This document shows, one piece after another, positions 35,621 to 56,000 of a stretch of DNA of 64,000 nt. The position numbers and the translations under genes are program-made. The notes below the pieces were generated by a model, which saw only the letters and a program-made list of their open reading frames with translations, was not told the DNA's origin and did not search any database. Position 1 is the first letter of the stretch. The number at the start of each line of letters is the position of its first letter. This DNA comes from an uncultured virus (IMG/VR IMGVR_UViG_3300012665_000499) (lineage: Duplodnaviria > Heunggongvirae > Uroviricota > Caudoviricetes): IMG/VR virus record IMGVR_UViG_3300012665_000499; one strand, written 5' to 3'.

Positions 35621-35653
35621 AAAAGAAAAGGACGGTAGGTCTCCCCACCGTCC
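35621..35653 (-). terminator. Rho-independent terminator before primase-helicase
   Basis: GGACGGT...ACCGTCC stem followed by a T-rich run on the - strand. Confidence 0.55.
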
Positions 35654-35665
35654 CACCGGGCGGGA

Positions 35666-38856: not shown

Positions 38857-38885
38857 AAAAAAGCCGGGTAGCTAAACTACCCGGC
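38857..38885 (-). terminator. Rho-independent terminator
   Basis: GCCGGGTAG/CTACCCGGC 9-bp stem plus T6 on the - strand. Confidence 0.75.
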
Positions 38886-46768: not shown

Positions 46769-46804
46769 GATTTTCTTTCTGGTTAAAACTTATACCGGTA
46801 TAAG

Positions 46805-51486: not shown

Positions 51487-51514
51487 GATAGAAATCCTTA
51501 AAAAGTTATACCGG

Positions 51515-51787
51515 TTATAAGTTTGTTGCGTTTTCTGTAAAGTCGGTCTCTTGCAATGGGGGCAACTCCATCGCCTTATTCATCATTGCCCACACATCCT
51601 TCAAAGACTCCATGTCCTCTGAGCCTGTGCATGGTGAGCCGTACCCAGTCGGCTTGTTGTCCTTGCCGTAACACACTTCCTGTAAGCAGTACCAGTCTTC
51701 ACCGCCATTCTCTGACTTGGTATTTACAATGCGGTAGTTCCATGTGAACCCGCCGTCATCATTTAGTTCGTTTAGTTCATCAGTCAT
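51515..51787 (-). CDS. Small conserved phage protein
   Basis: TWNYRIV...L.EV.Y. Confidence 0.65.
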   Translation of the reverse strand: MTDELNELNDDGGFTWNYRIVNTKSENGGEDWYCLQEVCYGKDNKPTGYGSPCTGSEDMESLKDVWAMMNKAMELPPLQETDFTENATNL

Positions 51788-51788
51788 A

Positions 51789-51998
51789 TCATGTCCTCTT
51801 TGGGTTAAGTTGTTTCAACATCTCAGGGTCGGTGAAGAGCATGTAGTTGCTCTTGTTCATAGGTGCAATCGTGTGCTTGACACGCTGCGCCAGTCTCTCC
51901 CCACACTCAGCACAGGTGGGGCGTAGTGCCTTGGCTCTCTGTGGTTCTACCCTTACTGCGTAGCAGCAGGTACAGATTGGTAGGTATCGCTCGTTCAT
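51789..51998 (-). CDS. Small Zn-finger protein
   Basis: CTCC...CAECG; PMNKSNY. Confidence 0.65.
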   Translation of the reverse strand: MNERYLPICTCCYAVRVEPQRAKALRPTCAECGERLAQRVKHTIAPMNKSNYMLFTDPEMLKQLNPKRT

Positions 51999-52177
51999 TG
52001 CACATCCTCCACTTGTTTGACATTGATGATGTCCGAACTACCCAAGCCGTAGTTCACAGGGTTGAACTTCTGCCAAGCGAGTAACTCGGCTTCCTTGCGG
52101 TTCTCCGCTTCCACAAACACAATCGTCACTTCAACACGCTCAATGGTTACTTCGTACGAGTTCATATATTTCTCCAA
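51995..52177 (-). CDS. Small hypothetical protein
   Basis: VEAEN..EAE..A; likely true start ATG 52165. Confidence 0.55.
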   Translation of the reverse strand: MEKYMNSYEVTIERVEVTIVFVEAENRKEAELLAWQKFNPVNYGLGSSDIINVKQVEDVQ

Positions 52178-52196
52178 AAGTTATAACAGGTATAAG

Positions 52197-52490
52197 TTAG
52201 TTCGACTCATACCCAAGGGCGGCTAATACTTCTAGCCGTTTCGCTGCCAAGGTGAACGCTTCCGCTATCGCCCTAGCCAACTCGAGGGGGGTATATCCTG
52301 CGTTTGTACCCCCTGCACCATACGAGAAACTTACTCGTGGTTTGCCTGTGTAGTCAAAGTCCACACCAACTCGGCAAATACCACTGGTCGCCCAATGTGT
52401 GTCCGAGTGATACTGGTAGGTCATCTGTCCCACCACCTTGCCATCTTTGATGTAGGTGTAGTCGTCTGTCTTTTCGTATACATGTGCCAT
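52197..52490 (-). CDS. Hypothetical early protein
   Basis: Shared 17-nt leader; ends at a palindrome. Confidence 0.6.
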   Translation of the reverse strand: MAHVYEKTDDYTYIKDGKVVGQMTYQYHSDTHWATSGICRVGVDFDYTGKPRVSFSYGAGGTNAGYTPLELARAIAEAFTLAAKRLEVLAALGYESN

Positions 52491-52501
52491 GATAGAAATC
52501 C

Positions 52502-52717
52502 TTACTTAAAGTCGATTGCGAATTCGTTGCCGTTAAAACTTGCCTCTATGTTGCAGTACAGCATTTGTTTCAGTTGCTCTACCACGCGGTCAATGTCCCG
52601 CGCCTGATACCCATCGTCCCCACGGACAAACAAAGTACCGTTGCAGAAATACGCACAGTCAGCGATGACGGCGTTGAGGTCTTCTAACTTGTCCAAAACA
52701 ATTTTCTCTAGTCCCAT
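52502..52717 (-). CDS. Small hypothetical early protein
   Basis: GGAG RBS; F.NGTLFV...GNEFAIDF. Confidence 0.6.
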   Translation of the reverse strand: MGLEKIVLDKLEDLNAVIADCAYFCNGTLFVRGDDGYQARDIDRVVEQLKQMLYCNIEASFNGNEFAIDFK

Positions 52718-52757
52718 TTTCATTCTCCGGTTATGGAAGTTATACCAGTTATAACTT

Positions 52758-53234
52758 ACCGCAGAGGGCACGGAAATGCCCAATGCGCTAAGCCCTCTTT
52801 TAGTGAGGACTGTCGCCCTGCTATACATAGCAGTGGACTACGATAGGGCTTGTCGTTCACACATATTCCCCCGAGGGGGTTTGCGTTCCTAACACGGCAT
52901 CAACGGCGGTCGCTACGCGCCATAATCTCCGTGCATTAGCGGGTCTAGGTCATTACCCTAGATACCCACGCCCAGTTAAGTAGTATCGGTTTGATTTGCA
53001 TGATGCTGTAACCACATCATGTCAGGACTACACCTAACGCCTATTCGCCAAGGGAGGGTTCTCATGTCTGCTTATGGGTGTGCCGTGGTAGCCTCGGTGG
53101 GGTCTGGCATAAATGCTACTGCTACTGAGTAGTCATCGACCTTCACCTAATCTACCGCGTGTCCTCTTGTTGTCAGCGCAATTCATCCTATTGGTTTCTG
53201 CATTGTTGCAGCGGCGGTTTCATGGGGGGCTTGA
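52758..53234 (-). ncRNA. Candidate large structured non-coding RNA (unclassified)
   Basis: No credible ORF; seven local hairpins plus nested long-range helices; G-U pairs valid only on the - strand; downstream of promoter + boxA. Confidence 0.55.
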
Positions 53235-53289
53235 AAGTTATACTGGTATAACTTATGGTTAGATATAATCAAACCCCTTGAGTACAGAT

Positions 53290-53301
53290 TGTTAAAGAGC
53301 G
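53290..53301 (-). promoter_or_regulatory. boxA antitermination element
   Basis: CGCTCTTTAACA on the - strand, ~60 nt after the predicted start site. Confidence 0.8.
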
Positions 53302-53366
53302 ATGCCCCCATAGGTGTAGGTGGTAGGCGGTACAGTTCAGAGCGATATCTCAACTGACTAGCCATC

Positions 53367-53395
53367 AGTATAGCAGGTATAGGGGGGCTTGTCAA
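53367..53395 (-). promoter_or_regulatory. Strong sigma70 early promoter
   Basis: TTGACA-N17-TATACT. Confidence 0.85.
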
Positions 53396-53410
53396 GCCCC
53401 TTTTGGAGAG

Positions 53411-53692
53411 TTATACCGGGTATAACTTCTTAGCCTTAGCGATGATTTGGTGAACCCTGATTTCGGATAGGTTGTACGCCTTGGCTACATTGGCACGGGT
53501 TTCGTGCTTCTGCAACACACGCTCCACAATCTCCGCATCTCGTTTGGCTAGGTCGGGTTTCATGTATTCAGGTTTGCGTTTCACCCATGCCATCAGGGCA
53601 GCCGCAGCAGCCATGTGCAGGTCTTTGGATTCGTGGGAGTTGGTGAGCGCGTCCGCGAAAGTGTCAGGTAGTTCAAGTGATAGTTTTTGCAT
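53411..53692 (-). CDS. Small HTH DNA-binding protein
   Basis: RDAEIV......TRANVAKAYNLSEIRVHQII; the upstream in-frame extension runs through iterons and is unlikely. Confidence 0.65.
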   Translation of the reverse strand: MQKLSLELPDTFADALTNSHESKDLHMAAAAALMAWVKRKPEYMKPDLAKRDAEIVERVLQKHETRANVAKAYNLSEIRVHQIIAKAKKLYPV

Positions 53693-53740
53693 AGTTATAC
53701 CGGTATAAGTTGAGGGAGTTGTAGTATATATCATATTTCT

Positions 53741-54087
53741 TGTTACGGGTGTTACGAGGGTAAAAAGGGTGCTGTAACGCTGGAGGGCGCATGGATGCTC
53801 ATTTGTTACGCTGTTACAGATGTTACAGGGTTTTTGGGGTGTTTCCGGAAAAACACGAATGTATGAACGCCAATCCAAAATATTTCGTGATACCGACTAT
53901 ACCTGCGCCCAAAAACCGATATTTGGATTCGAGAGCCAAAAAGCCTGTAACAGCGTAACATACACTAAAAATAAAAAAATATAATATATATACTCTCTCT
54001 AACTCATTGATTTCATTAGCTTTTTTATTTTGGATTTTGCCTTTGCTTTGTTACAGGCAAATTGTAACAGCCTGTAACACCTGTAAC
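53741..54087. repeat. Iteron-like TGTTAC/TGTAAC cluster with AT-rich core (putative origin)
   Basis: About 12 GTTAC/GTAAC copies flanking AT-rich 53960-54040. Confidence 0.6.
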
Positions 54088-54284
54088 ATATACCGGTATA
54101 AGTTTGCCGAAAATGATAGTCGTGCCGCGCTGCGATGCCTCGAAGTTATACTGGGTATATGTTTGCCGTGTCTGTCAAGGCGGCGTTGGTTCGGTGGCTC
54201 GACTCTCCCTCTCCCGTTCGAGCCCACGCGCGCACGCTCTCCCGCTCGGTCGTGCTACTATCACCAGCCCCAAAATTGGGGCGC

Positions 54285-54308
54285 AAAAAAACCCCGCCGA
54301 GGCGGGGT
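54285..54308 (-). terminator. Rho-independent terminator
   Basis: ACCCCGCC/GGCGGGGT stem plus T6 on the - strand. Confidence 0.8.
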
Positions 54309-54326
54309 AGTTATACCGGTATAGGT

Positions 54327-54512
54327 TTATGCGGTTCGTTCCGCGATTTCTTCCAAAATTATTTCGGCCCAAATTTCAGCGGCCATCAGGGTATTGCAGG
54401 CTTCAACTTCGGCCGTGGTGGCTTCCATCAAAATTTCGGCCAATTCATCGATGTTCAAAATTTGGCCATGTTGGCACAATCCATCGATATCGCATTTTGC
54501 TACAAAGTACAT
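54327..54512 (-). CDS. Small acidic early protein
   Basis: AAAGGAG RBS; Glu-rich. Confidence 0.6.
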   Translation of the reverse strand: MYFVAKCDIDGLCQHGQILNIDELAEILMEATTAEVEACNTLMAAEIWAEIILEEIAERTA

Positions 54513-54533
54513 TTTAATTTCTCCTTTAGATTT

Positions 54534-54559
54534 AACCCTAGGCGTTTCCGCCTAGGGTT
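54534..54559. terminator. 11-bp hairpin (GAAA loop on -, T-run on +)
   Basis: AACCCTAGGCG-TTTC-CGCCTAGGGTT. Confidence 0.55.
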
Positions 54560-54566
54560 TTTGGTT

Positions 54567-55142
54567 TTACTTCGCTTCGGTAAACTTAGGGTTTACTTCG
54601 ACAATCAAATCCAACAAGGCCGCGGCCGTTTCGTTTTTCTGCAAAACCCGTGCGATGGCCAGGGTTTTAATCAACGCGCTTTCCAGCGTTTCGATTGTCG
54701 TGGTTTTCGCGCTGGCCTTTTCTACCGCTACGCCATCGGCTTCGGCCGCGGCCTTTTCCGCGGCCTTGATTTTGCGCGCCATCGGGTCAAAGGCTTTTCC
54801 CTCTTCGTAGCAAAGCCAGTAACTAGATGCGTACATTGTGGCCGTGTTTTTCTTCATCAAGCCATCGGCCGCAAATCCCGCGAACATATCCGCAATGTCG
54901 CGCTTGGCTTGATTATTCACCGCGGTACCGGCCAAGAATACGGCCATTTTGGTTTTCTGCGCGGCACGCATAGAATCCATCACCATTTGCACGCCATCGT
55001 TGCGCGCTTGAACCGCATCGGCCGCGGCTTTGTCCAAGCCTTGGATTTTGTCCGCCATGGTTGACCATACTTTGCCCAATACCGCGGGAGAAAAGGTAGC
55101 GGGAGACAATGCGCCAGTGGCGCTTTCATTAAACGATGTCAT
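54567..55142 (-). CDS. First early gene, Ala-rich helical protein
   Basis: GGAG RBS and own promoter. Confidence 0.7.
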   Translation of the reverse strand: MTSFNESATGALSPATFSPAVLGKVWSTMADKIQGLDKAAADAVQARNDGVQMVMDSMRAAQKTKMAVFLAGTAVNNQAKRDIADMFAGFAADGLMKKNTATMYASSYWLCYEEGKAFDPMARKIKAAEKAAAEADGVAVEKASAKTTTIETLESALIKTLAIARVLQKNETAAALLDLIVEVNPKFTEAK

Positions 55143-55192
55143 AAGATACTCCAGTTTATCGGGTCATTGAAATAATGCTTGCCGATGACTGA

Positions 55193-55221
55193 ATTCTACA
55201 TGGTTGGTTAGAATTAAGCAA
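55193..55221 (-). promoter_or_regulatory. Sigma70 early promoter
   Basis: TTGCTT-N17-TAGAAT; palindrome copy directly upstream of the -35. Confidence 0.6.
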
Positions 55222-55454
55222 GCATTTTATACCGGTATAACTTACCCCACCCCGCCCCCACCAAGCCTTTGTGGCTATGGGACTCCGCCCGTCCCGCTAC
55301 GCTGGGCGCGACATTAACGAACACAACCACAATAAAAAGTATAGCTCCTATACCCCCACCCCCCTCAATACAGAGACCCCCCGGGTACCAAAATAAAACA
55401 CACCTCGAAAAAAATACTATACAATCCGCCCAACTTAGGCTGCACAACTTCGCC

Positions 55455-56000
55455 ATGTACCCTGTCTCTATAGATACTGATGTTCCGCTTGCTGAATTCG
55501 CCCCGACTTTCGAGTCCCTAGATACCCGTGTGGCTGCTGCTCTCGCCTCGCTTGTAGATACCGACTCACTGCCGAACGAAATCTCCGACGAGAACATGAA
55601 TACGTCCCGGGCTATTTTTACCGGGCAACAACTTGCGTCTGATATAGACTTGGCCAAGCCAGAGGTCATCGCTCACCTTGGAGCGCTCCTGCAAGAATAC
55701 GACCACATCGTAGTTAAGTCTGCTGCGCAGCTACGTACATATATAACCAACAAGCTCATTTTGGATTCCGCCAATGCAGACCCACGGGTTCGTCTGAAGT
55801 CACTTGAGATGCTGGGCAAGATCAGCGACGTTGGGTTGTTTACAGACAAGACCGAGATTACGATGCGCCACCGGCCCACGGAAGAGTTGGAGCAGTTGCT
55901 GCGCGAGCGCCTCACCCGGGTAGTCGAAGCAGAAGCCGCCACCCCCTACCAGCCCACCCAGAAAGTTAGCTTAGATATTACAGAGGTGGTTGGCCGGTGA
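55455..56000 (+). CDS. terS: Putative terminase small subunit
   Basis: Directly upstream of terL with GTGA overlap; RLKSLEMLGK...GLF. Confidence 0.55.
   Translation: MYPVSIDTDVPLAEFAPTFESLDTRVAAALASLVDTDSLPNEISDENMNTSRAIFTGQQLASDIDLAKPEVIAHLGALLQEYDHIVVKSAAQLRTYITNKLILDSANADPRVRLKSLEMLGKISDVGLFTDKTEITMRHRPTEELEQLLRERLTRVVEAEAATPYQPTQKVSLDITEVVGR

What the first reader, a model, noticed from the sequence alone, without database searches (positions are those of the whole stretch)
52737..53395. Candidate ~480-nt structured ncRNA with an rRNA-like expression unit (promoter, boxA, enclosing stem)
Seen: ~600 nt lacking a credible ORF in an otherwise tightly packed genome. On the - strand it follows TTGACA-N17-TATACT (53395-53367) and boxA CGCTCTTTAACA (53301-53290). 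Local hairpins lie at 53198-53211, 52999-53021, 52941-52967, 52868-52879, 52818-52833, 52792-52810 and 52766-52781. Nested long-range helices are ACCGC/GCGGT (53214-53218 with 52758-52762), UGCGCUGA/UUAGCGCA (53173-53180 with 52784-52791), GAGGAC/GUCCUC (53161-53166 with 52805-52810, competing with a local hairpin) and CACGGCA/UGCCGUG (53081-53087 with 52893-52899). Two helices need G-U pairs that exist only on the - strand. The flanking palindromes (53235-53254, 52737-52757) can pair with each other over ~20 bp with one bulge. Known: rRNA operons use boxA and RNase III stems, and phages encode large RNAs of unknown function (GOLLD, ROOL). Inference: an abundant, processed early RNA of a class I do not recognise.
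Basis: partly seen in the sequence, partly recalled or inferred. Interest (0 to 1): 0.85.

Follow-up and report, generated by a model that had tools for sequence, protein, structure and literature searches.

The report
New large structured phage leader RNA
An elaborately folded RNA of about 300-700 bases, matching no RNA family in the database searched, sits at the very start of the early genes of a group of uncultured freshwater phages, behind a near-perfect host promoter and a ribosomal-RNA-type anti-termination signal; its job is still unknown.

Summary
The untranslated stretch 52718-53410 (- strand) is one member of a conserved RNA family. I found it on 74 IMG/VR phage contigs, one 9-kb contig binned in a MAG, and the window, giving about 60 distinct sequences. 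None of 4227 Rfam families matches. Members share a TTGACA-N17-TAnnnT promoter with TG, a 5' hairpin, a boxA (GCTCTTTAA..) and a multi-domain core of 278-715 nt. Every member with a complete 3' end runs into the ribosome site of a variable first gene, and I found no terminator there. For 42 base pairs defined on 24 sequences, 88.4% of cells pair against 73.5% in shuffles (0/500). The same pairs hold in 34 sequences found later (87.5% against 73.7%). Its long-range helices and the "enclosing palindrome stem" are not family features. They lie in clade-specific insertions, or occur in only 6 of 25 members. Expression level, ends and processing could not be tested. My best reading (0.45) is a cis-acting, Nus/boxA-protected operon leader. 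The main rival (0.33) is an excised, trans-acting RNA. It is a new RNA class of high interest.

The parts
53367..53395 (-). Immediate-early sigma-70 promoter: TTGACA, 17-nt spacer, TG, TATACT
   Evidence: 11 of 12 with TG. The regex TTGAC[AT]-N16-18-TAnnnT is found in 11 of 11, 23 of 24 (the miss is a truncated locus) and 32 of 34 homologues.
53333..53356 (-). 5'-proximal hairpin a few nt after the inferred start, loop UAUCGC
   Evidence: The loop letters AUCG are invariant in the 12 sequences of A3. The stem changes with compensation (e.g. L056, L078). About 20 of 27 show the same hairpin (by eye).
53304..53328 (-). C-rich/G-run hairpin just before boxA (GCCUACC...GGGGGC)
   Evidence: Read by eye. 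A copy of the motif recurs inside insertion V3 of L058, L063 and others. Its role is unknown.
53289..53301 (-). boxA (CGCTCTTTAACAA)
   Evidence: Columns G67 T69 C70 T72 T73 A74 A77 are invariant in A3. The regex G.TC.TT[AG]A is found in 22 of 24 and 29 of 34. That it equals the rrn boxA consensus is recalled, not tested by a call.
53256..53272 (-). Small hairpin after boxA (UGAUUA..UAACCA)
   Evidence: by eye. It is kept in the window clade, L053 and L054, and varies elsewhere.
53235..53254 (-). Upstream copy of the phage-specific palindrome
   Evidence: Each phage has its own palindrome at this place.
53038..53221 (-). 5' domain: three-way junction. It comprises P-b (53216-53213 with 53041-53038), hairpin P-a (53211-53198), P-c (53195-53192 with 53050-53047) and P-d (53189-53187 with 53057-53055). 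These enclose insertion V1 (53184-53058).
   Evidence: P-b pairs in 96 of 96 cells, with a double compensatory change in L054. P-c has 3 of 4 pairs with changes on both sides. P-d (AGR/YCU) was read by eye because MAFFT puts it out of register. V1 is 0-265 nt long in other members.
53022..53037 (-). Hairpin H3 with a conserved loop (family consensus UAGUCAGU; short form here)
   Evidence: 95% of cells paired, 3 of 5 pairs changed on both sides; 161 of 163 cells paired in new sequences.
52999..53021 (-). Hairpin H4. In most members it is long, with GGUGUAG..GAUAGC and a variable apex.
   Evidence: 78-80% of cells paired; misaligned in one clade; 161 of 192.
52837..52984 (-). Central domain. Long-range helices P-x (52984-52980 with 52841-52837) and P-y (52973-52971 with 52848-52846) enclose H5 (52967-52941), insertion V3 (52934-52892) and the two-tier hairpin H6 (52885-52858).
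   Evidence: in the four core P-x pairs, all 92 cells with letters pair, and 3 of the 4 pairs show changes on both sides (ACUAC/GUAGU becomes AGUGC/GCACU, ACUGC/GCAGU). P-y pairs in 91% of cells. P-x 157 of 159, P-y 99 of 99. The H6 architecture appears in 19 of 24 isolated-segment folds.
52792..52833 (-). Hairpins H7 (52833-52818) and H8 (52810-52792)
   Evidence: They are present, with different stem sequences, in about 9-10 of 24 members. Other clades have an A/C-rich unpaired linker instead.
52760..52787 (-). Long helix H9 (CGCAUUGGGCA / UGCCCUCUGCG)
   Evidence: 11 pairs, 9 with changes on both sides, 84% of cells paired. A hairpin forms in 24 of 24 segment folds; 267 of 357 cells.
52737..52757 (-). 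Downstream palindrome copy. It stands where about 17 of 24 members have the terminal hairpin H10.
52715..52728 (-). Ribosome site GGAG and the ATG of the first gene (71 aa, 52502-52717)
   Evidence: The first gene differs between phages.

Best explanation
SHOWN. This is a member of a conserved family of large structured RNAs in uncultured phages. No Rfam family matches it and my literature searches found no description. The core is 278-715 nt from its first conserved base to the next ATG. The RNA is always the first thing read from a near-consensus, extended -10 host promoter. It always follows a short leader with a 5' hairpin and a boxA. It always continues without a terminator into the ribosome site of a variable first gene at the head of a long early/replication gene array.

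INFERRED. Host RNA polymerase starts here immediately after DNA entry. boxA loads NusB/NusE and the other Nus factors, as on rRNA operons. This keeps Rho from aborting transcription on 0.4-0.8 kb of untranslated RNA, and helps helices that span up to about 330 nt to form during transcription.

MOST LIKELY ROLE OF THE FOLDED CORE (0.45 for this class of role). It stays attached as the 5' domain of the early transcript and works in cis at the level of the operon. My specific guess is that it acts together with the boxA-bound Nus complex on the transcribing polymerase. That would make it a much larger relative of nut or put sites, letting the polymerase finish the >=14-kb array. Help with ribosome loading or protection of the 5' end are weaker options within the same class.
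For: Family and structure: homologues were found through neighbouring genes and through two core motifs. All 28 and all 54 motif hits in viral contigs are true homologues (nhmmer E<1e-15 and <=3.5e-12). Covariation on a sequence-only alignment of 24: 88.4% of 988 cells pair against 73.5+-0.8 in shuffles (0/500). 28 of 42 pairs change on both sides, against 17.6+-1.8. Partners slid by 1-3 columns give 31-44%. The same 42 pairs were tested on 34 sequences found afterwards: 1136 of 1299 cells pair (87.5%), against 73.7% in shuffles (maximum 75.7). Cells with changes on both sides number 198, against 77.5 (maximum 99). Strand: G.U exceeds A.C by 77 to 37 and by 135 to 41.

Position tied to the operon head: the promoter and boxA counts are given under parts. 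The RNA runs into an SD plus ATG in 23 of 24 members (the 24th is cut by its contig end) and in 22 of 22 later members. None of those 22 has a terminator-like site. The first gene varies, so the RNA is not a regulator of one gene.

Downstream array: there are no strong intrinsic terminators for 6-8 kb in 8 of 9 loci. In the window the first lie about 14 and 17 kb downstream, at 38885-38863 and 35654-35629.

Tertiary-fold signs, read by eye with motif names recalled: GNRA-type loops cap H5 in at least 12 of 24 members, and a UAA/UAU internal loop lies between P-x and P-y.
Against: No antitermination RNA that I recall is this large or this complex. As I recall it, rrn-type boxA needs no such RNA. 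No N-like arginine-rich protein was identified, though I did not search for one systematically. Terminators inside the downstream array are few, so the need for processive antitermination is not evident. Size, modular insertions and tertiary motifs are equally typical of free-standing RNAs such as ROOL, GOLLD, OLE or RNase P. In the out-of-sample set, one measure did not exceed shuffles: further pair types were 54 against 54.5. No expression data exist. Nus binding, Rho protection and any action on polymerase are inference only.
Confidence: 0.45

Rival explanations
1. Excised or persisting trans-acting RNA. The structured part is cut from the early transcript, or outlives it, and accumulates. 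It then acts as an RNA-protein scaffold, a decoy for a host factor or defence, or a ribozyme. As the first product of infection it would work before any phage protein exists.
For: The expression unit resembles an rRNA operon (strongest possible promoter plus boxA). There is a conserved complex core with peripheral insertions of 0-265 nt. Hairpins stand at both ends: the 5' hairpin and H10, often with AUC-containing loops. Phage-specific hairpins are grafted onto the apices of H5/H6, as if to recruit a partner. As I recall, 6S RNA is also cut from the 5' part of a transcript that continues into a gene.
Against: None of the 45 members with a complete 3' end has its own terminator or a different genomic place. 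No conserved leader-trailer helix for excision exists (6 of 25). No transcript data are available.
Confidence: 0.33
2. Sensing leader of the riboswitch or T-box kind. The core binds a metabolite, ion, tRNA or host signal and sets how much of the early operon is made.
For: It lies in the 5' leader. It has a conserved multi-helix junction core. H9/H10 end 25-110 nt before the start codon.
Against: No terminator/antiterminator or SD-sequestering alternative was seen. The spacing to the SD is variable. boxA would blunt Rho-based control. No Rfam riboswitch or T-box matches. The core is larger than the usual aptamers (recalled).
Confidence: 0.08
3. One reading: the two flanking palindromes pair into a stem of about 20 bp that RNase III cuts to release a 480-nt RNA.
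For: Both palindromes exist and can pair. The same arrangement occurs in L002, L003, L058, L060 and L062.
Against: It is absent in 19 of 25 members. Each palindrome can fold on itself with as many pairs as the two would form together. The same palindrome occurs at 9 places in the window's early region, mostly just before genes. The proposed inner long-range helices fail in homologues.
Confidence: 0.08
4. A DNA-level element: hairpins in single-stranded DNA at an origin or packaging site. It would not be an RNA.
For: GTTACAG iterons and an AT-rich stretch lie about 400 bp upstream. The + strand folds as well as the - strand.
Against: G.U exceeds A.C by 77:37 and 135:41 on the promoter strand. 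The promoter and boxA are fixed in orientation and distance. The iterons are not adjacent in all members.
Confidence: 0.03

Closest known systems
rRNA operon leader (boxB-boxA-boxC) with the Nus/SuhB/S4 antitermination complex
   Same: Strong sigma-70 promoter. Hairpin(s) next to a boxA of the same letters. A long untranslated, highly structured RNA follows, with helices between distant segments. The complex is described as both anti-Rho and an RNA chaperone (abstracts of PMC10250234, PMC4807359, PMC6614797 and PMC8632103 in the listing).
   Different: The RNA is not rRNA (no Rfam rRNA match). It is followed by protein genes. A leader-trailer helix occurs in only 6 of 25 members.
Lambda nut sites (boxA + boxB, N protein) and HK022 put RNA
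   Same: A promoter-proximal RNA element at the head of a phage early operon. A boxA stands next to a hairpin whose sequence is specific to each phage.
   Different: nut and put are tens of nt long (recalled), against 278-715 nt here. No N-like protein was identified. put has no boxA (recalled). The phage-specific hairpin also occurs at many other places.
GOLLD, ROOL, OLE and raiA: large ornate bacterial/phage RNAs of unknown function
   Same: Size, modular build, phage association and a freshwater source (the GOLLD name includes 'Lake'; abstract of 10.1101/2024.12.08.627333 in the listing). Function is unknown.
   Different: No match to their Rfam models. As I recall, those RNAs are free-standing and often near tRNAs, not boxA-led operon leaders.
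csRNAs of Fremin, Bhatt & Kyrpides 2023 (PMC10690425): 10,006 candidate structured RNAs from IMG/VR
   Same: Same data source. Single hairpins of this RNA may be among them.
   Different: Their candidates are 29-151 nt long (section 2.1, read). The spreadsheets and document that could be searched hold none of my motif or contig strings. The alignment archives could not be read, so overlap of parts is not excluded.

Membership tests
Any Rfam 15 family (4227 models, including rRNA, RNase P, tmRNA, group I/II introns, riboswitches, T-box, GOLLD, ROOL, OLE, HEARO, 6S) | Covariance-model score at or above the family's gathering score | tested here: not met
   The window scanned at gathering score gave 0 matches. 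The region scanned at E<=10 gave 4 matches of 15-16 bits, with gathering scores of 33-75. 37 loci scanned at gathering score gave only one tRNA, elsewhere. 13 member loci scanned at E<=5 gave only one match overlapping an RNA: 19 bits against a gathering score of 167, in L085.
tRNA / tmRNA | ARAGORN detection | tested here: not met
   0 genes in the window.
rrn-type boxA antitermination site | boxA sequence in the nascent RNA shortly after the promoter | tested here: met
   GCTCTTTAACA lies 66-76 nt after the -10 element and is conserved in the family. Its equality with the rrn consensus is recalled. Two papers searched did not print the letters in searchable form.
rrn-type boxA antitermination site | Binding of NusB-NusE and resistance to Rho | not testable with these tools
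   Needs binding or transcription assays. The host is unknown.
rRNA-like precursor with an RNase III leader-trailer helix | Conserved long duplex between the sequences flanking the mature RNA | tested here: not met
   A shared flank palindrome (>=8 nt) occurs in 6 of 25 members.
Lambda-type nut site | boxA plus an adjacent boxB hairpin bound by a phage N protein | tested here: inconclusive
   A hairpin or palindrome with arms of >=7 bp lies between boxA and the core in 15 of 25 members. No N-like protein was looked for beyond Pfam/PHROG scans of neighbouring genes.
Riboswitch / T-box leader | Aptamer plus an expression platform (terminator/antiterminator or SD sequestration) | tested here: not met
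   0 of 22 members have a terminator-like site after the RNA. The distance from H9 to the ATG is variable. No Rfam match.
Protein-coding gene or pseudogene | A conserved open frame | tested here: not met
   The longest sense ORF is 28-79 codons, median 44.5. Insertions of many lengths occur. Base-pair covariation is present.

The most novel reading that the evidence does not exclude
This is a new class of large RNA with a defined three-dimensional fold that is the very first product of infection. It is released from the early transcript and acts in trans. It might act as a decoy or inhibitor of a host defence or a host RNA-handling factor, as a catalytic RNA, or as a self-assembling RNA in the manner of ROOL/GOLLD. 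The phage-specific hairpins on its periphery would recruit a phage-specific partner.
Probability: 0.33. Interest if true: 0.92.

Novelty: categorically new. Interest (0 to 1): 0.82.

Why it matters
Large, conserved, tertiary-structured RNAs are rare. Each class found so far has opened new biochemistry. This one has about 60 distinct natural variants. It has a well-supported secondary structure and a fixed, interpretable context: the strongest host promoter, boxA, and the head of the early operon. That context makes direct tests possible. If it acts in cis, it would be a new, RNA-heavy way for phages to control elongation or expression of their early genes using the host's rRNA antitermination machinery. 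If it acts in trans, it would be an RNA weapon or tool deployed before any phage protein is made. Either way it also marks, and could be used to find, the immediate-early promoter in a widespread group of uncultured freshwater phages.

Tried and rejected
1. Known RNA. Rfam scans at gathering score and at permissive E-values and ARAGORN found nothing.

2. Cultured relatives. blastn of the region against 50,697 phage records gave no match. The neighbouring ATPase reaches at most 27% identity there and the terminase at most 44%. No isolate carrying the RNA was found.

3. Whole genome and earlier notes. No genome is held for this window. There are no earlier notes on it.

4. Exact 18-20-mers of the window clade returned only the same four sequences. 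The other 31 metagenome hits were chance matches with no homology and no Rfam family at the match.

5. Relatives of the 71-aa downstream protein at about 40% identity (L005-L009) have no gap upstream. The RNA is not linked to that gene.

6. Expression. One metatranscriptome run (X20) holds a 9.5-kb contig of a relative spanning the whole region. Contigs give no ends, strand or level, and DNA carry-over is possible, so there is no verdict. Runs with small shares that I did not lay say nothing about habitat.

7. MAFFT columns for P-d, H6, H8 and H10 are out of register between clades. I left them out of the counted structure. I judged them instead from folds of isolated segments and by eye.

8. 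I did not build a covariance model. I did not test pseudoknots or tertiary contacts.

9. Resemblances I considered from memory and dropped: RNase P conserved regions, group I intron P7, and a 16S rRNA 9-mer. None is backed by an Rfam score, and the 9-mer is at chance level by my own estimate.

10. The upstream HTH protein as binder of the palindromes is unlikely. Its recognition helix (..IRVHQI..) is the same in phages with different palindromes. A homologue is found upstream in only 11 of 26 loci besides the window.

11. Supplements of PMC10690425. The archives with the alignments could not be read. The readable spreadsheets and document had no hit.

12. Literature searches found no description of such an RNA.

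Full report
WHAT IS AT THE SITE

On the - strand, the 93-aa gene 53411-53692 has a weak match to KorA and sigma-70 region 4 helix-turn-helix families. It is followed by 693 nt without a credible ORF, up to the ATG at 52717 of a 71-aa gene of unknown family.

The stretch opens with TTGACA-17 nt-TATACT preceded by TG (53395-53367). This scores 11 of 12 and is the best promoter-like site in 51500-56000. GCTCTTTAACA lies at 53300-53290 and is the only exact copy in the window.

The window is a phage-like sequence. It carries terminase, portal, DNA polymerase A, helicase and primase genes. Its best match to any cultured phage is 44% identity for terminase. No whole genome is held.

IS IT A KNOWN RNA? 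No.

- The whole window scanned at Rfam gathering scores gave nothing.
- The region scanned at E<=10 gave four matches of 15-16 bits against gathering scores of 33-75.
- There is no tRNA or tmRNA.
- Thirteen diverse family members scanned at E<=5 gave only one match overlapping an RNA: 19 bits against a gathering score of 167, in L085.

FOLDING ENERGY

Energy alone is only suggestive. With the two palindromes z is -4.95. For the inner 477 nt z is -2.50 on the - strand and -2.89 on the + strand. For the short homologues L002 and L003, z is -2.09 and -2.50.

HOMOLOGUES

- Relatives of the upstream protein gave three IMG/VR loci. L001 carries an RNA region 89% identical to the window's. L002 and L003 carry a version about 200 nt shorter, which lacks three blocks.
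- Relatives of the ATPase 2-3 kb downstream gave 14 loci. A sequence profile found the RNA upstream in 12 of them. The other two lack the upstream flank.
- A degenerate 24-nt core motif hit 28 viral contigs, and all 28 are homologues.
- In 185,579 species genomes the same motif hit 5 places. Only one is a homologue: a 9-kb contig binned in an Alphaproteobacteria MAG.
- A second motif hit 54 viral contigs. All 54 are homologues, and 34 are new distinct sequences.

In total I count 74 IMG/VR contigs and about 60 distinct sequences (12 + 17 + 34). My de-duplication removes little more than exact copies. Pieces near-identical to the window occur in riverine and other metagenome runs that I laid.

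THE SHARED UNIT

Every member with enough flank shows the following, in order.

- The promoter: 11 of 11, 23 of 24 and 32 of 34 by regex.
- A hairpin a few nt after the start, often with an AUCG loop.
- A boxA: 22 of 24 and 29 of 34 by a strict regex, with visible variants in others.
- A hairpin or a phage-specific palindrome.
- The core, which starts at AAACCGCCGCUG.
- After the last helices, a ribosome site and the ATG of a gene that differs from phage to phage.

None of 22 later members with a complete 3' end has a terminator-like site there. From the first conserved base to that ATG the length is 278-715 nt.

STRUCTURE

Reading 12 and then 29 aligned sequences block by block gave a consistent architecture.

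- 5' domain: a three-way junction of P-b, hairpin P-a and P-c, with P-d inside it, closing a variable insertion V1.
- Hairpin H3, with a conserved loop.
- A long hairpin H4.
- Central domain: two long-range helices P-x and P-y enclose H5, a second variable insertion V3 and a two-tier hairpin H6.
- 3' domain: optional H7 and H8 (replaced by an A/C-rich linker in some clades), a long helix H9 and a terminal hairpin H10.

I counted the 42 pairs that lie in consistently aligned columns of a MAFFT (sequence-only) alignment of 24 RNAs.

| measure | observed | shuffles | shuffles reaching observed |
|---|---|---|---|
| cells paired (of 988) | 88.4% | 73.5 +- 0.8% | 0/500 |
| pairs changed on both sides (of 42) | 28 | 17.6 +- 1.8 | 0/500 |
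| cells changed on both sides | 141 | 44.9 | 0/500 |
| covariation score | 0.422 | 0.161 | 0/500 |

Sliding the partners by 1-3 columns gives 31-44% pairing and covariation scores of at most 0.10.

This structure was derived from these same sequences. So I repeated the count on the 34 sequences found afterwards, added to the same columns by sequence alone.

- 1136 of 1299 cells pair (87.5%), against 73.7% in shuffles (maximum 75.7 in 500) and 26-46% when slid.
- 198 cells change on both sides, against 77.5 in shuffles (maximum 99).
- One measure did not exceed shuffles there: further pair types were 54 against 54.5.

Folds of isolated segments show the H6 architecture in 19 of 24, H9 in 24 of 24 and H10 in about 17 of 24.

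The RNA strand is the promoter strand. G.U cells outnumber A.C cells by 77 to 37 and by 135 to 41.

By eye, H5 is capped by GNRA-type loops in at least 12 of 24 members. H4 carries an AGUA/GAA-type motif in about 10 members. The internal loop between P-x and P-y has UAA opposite UAU. The names and meaning of these motifs are recalled. They suggest a compact tertiary fold but were not tested.

All seven local hairpins are family helices. The four long-range helices are not.

- Three have a strand in V1 or V3, which only the window and L001 share.
- In L001 one of them is broken at 3 of 7 positions, while a local hairpin in V3 is kept by compensatory changes.
- The outer ACCGC/GCGGU helix is replaced in the family by P-b and by the base of H9.
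- The "enclosing stem" rests on two copies of a palindrome. That palindrome occurs at 9 places in the window's early region: 6 by pattern against 0.04 expected, and three variants by eye.
- Each phage has its own palindrome.
- The same palindrome flanks the RNA on both sides in only 6 of 25 members. In three others it sits inside the RNA, at the apex of H6; in two further members, by eye, it caps H5.

HOW IT MOST LIKELY WORKS

Shown: the order promoter, boxA, structured RNA, genes, and its constancy.

Inferred from the known role of boxA (abstracts listed): the Nus complex makes the polymerase resistant to Rho over this long untranslated RNA, and may chaperone its long-range helices.

For the core I see two serious readings.

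(a) It remains the 5' domain of the early transcript and acts in cis on the elongation complex or on its own message (0.45).
- In favour: in all 45 complete members it keeps exactly this place, with no terminator, whatever the first gene is.
- Against: its size and complexity far exceed nut or put (recalled). Strong terminators downstream are scarce, with one in 9 loci within 6-8 kb, and the first in the window about 14 kb away.

(b) It is cut out or outlives the message and acts in trans (0.33).
- In favour: its ornate, modular, rRNA-like character and its terminal hairpins.
- Against: no member stands alone.

Expression data could not decide between these readings. The only RNA run is held as contigs.

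NOVELTY

No Rfam family matches. Four full-text searches found no description. The IMG/VR-wide catalogue of Fremin et al. lists only candidates of 29-151 nt. Its alignment archives could not be read, so single hairpins of this RNA may be listed there. I rate the RNA as a new class. Which known kind of mechanism it belongs to remains open.

Noticed in passing
window 46790-46803, 52741-52755, 53238-53251, 53415-53429, 53695-53708, 54088-54101, ~54145-54160, 54311-54324, 55227-55240: A 14-15-bp palindrome (core TATACCGGTATA) occurs 9 times, all in the early region, mostly 0-25 nt before start codons or next to the promoter or terminator. Related phages carry a different palindrome at the same kinds of places, and even on the apices of RNA hairpins H5/H6. 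The centre varies by +-1 nt between copies. That fits an RNA (or ssDNA) hairpin better than a dimeric operator. Its binder and role are unknown.
   Followed up: partly
window 53740-54100: About a dozen GTTACAG/CTGTAAC repeats flank a very AT-rich stretch. This resembles iterons of a replication origin or a regulator-binding array. The same GTAACA repeats lie upstream of the RNA promoter in L058/L059 and L060.
   Followed up: no
window 54291-54308 (- strand): A strong intrinsic terminator follows a palindrome copy. It ends a first small leftward operon (genes 54567-55142 and 54327-54512) that precedes the HTH gene and the RNA unit.
   Followed up: no
window 53411-53692 (- strand): A 93-aa protein with a weak KorA / sigma-70 region 4 helix-turn-helix match lies directly upstream of the RNA promoter. 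Besides the window, homologues sit in the same place in 11 of 26 loci. Its recognition helix is conserved although the palindromes differ.
   Followed up: partly
L058 2670-2710; L063 2440-2480; also L066, L086, L087, L088, L096 (insertion V3): The variable insertion V3 of several members contains a second copy of the pyrimidine-rich/G-run motif that precedes boxA in the leader (..CCUACCAC.UAC...GGGGCA..). This suggests a duplicated binding or pairing element.
   Followed up: no
window 52490-52714, 53064-53187, 54308-55156: A relative assembled in run X20 (about 90-95% alike) has these three blocks replaced by 226, 52 and 601 other letters. These are the first gene after the RNA, part of V1, and the first small operon. 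This shows cassette-like mosaicism around and inside the RNA.
   Followed up: no
L004 1-625 (same metagenome as L001): Between the downstream palindrome and the 71-aa gene, this contig has about 200 nt that the window lacks. I did not examine it.
   Followed up: no
window 38863-38885 and 35629-35654 (- strand): Two strong intrinsic terminators lie inside the leftward gene array, just before the helicase and primase genes. A TTGACG-16-TATAAT site lies at 37293-37266. These are possible boundaries of temporal classes.
   Followed up: no
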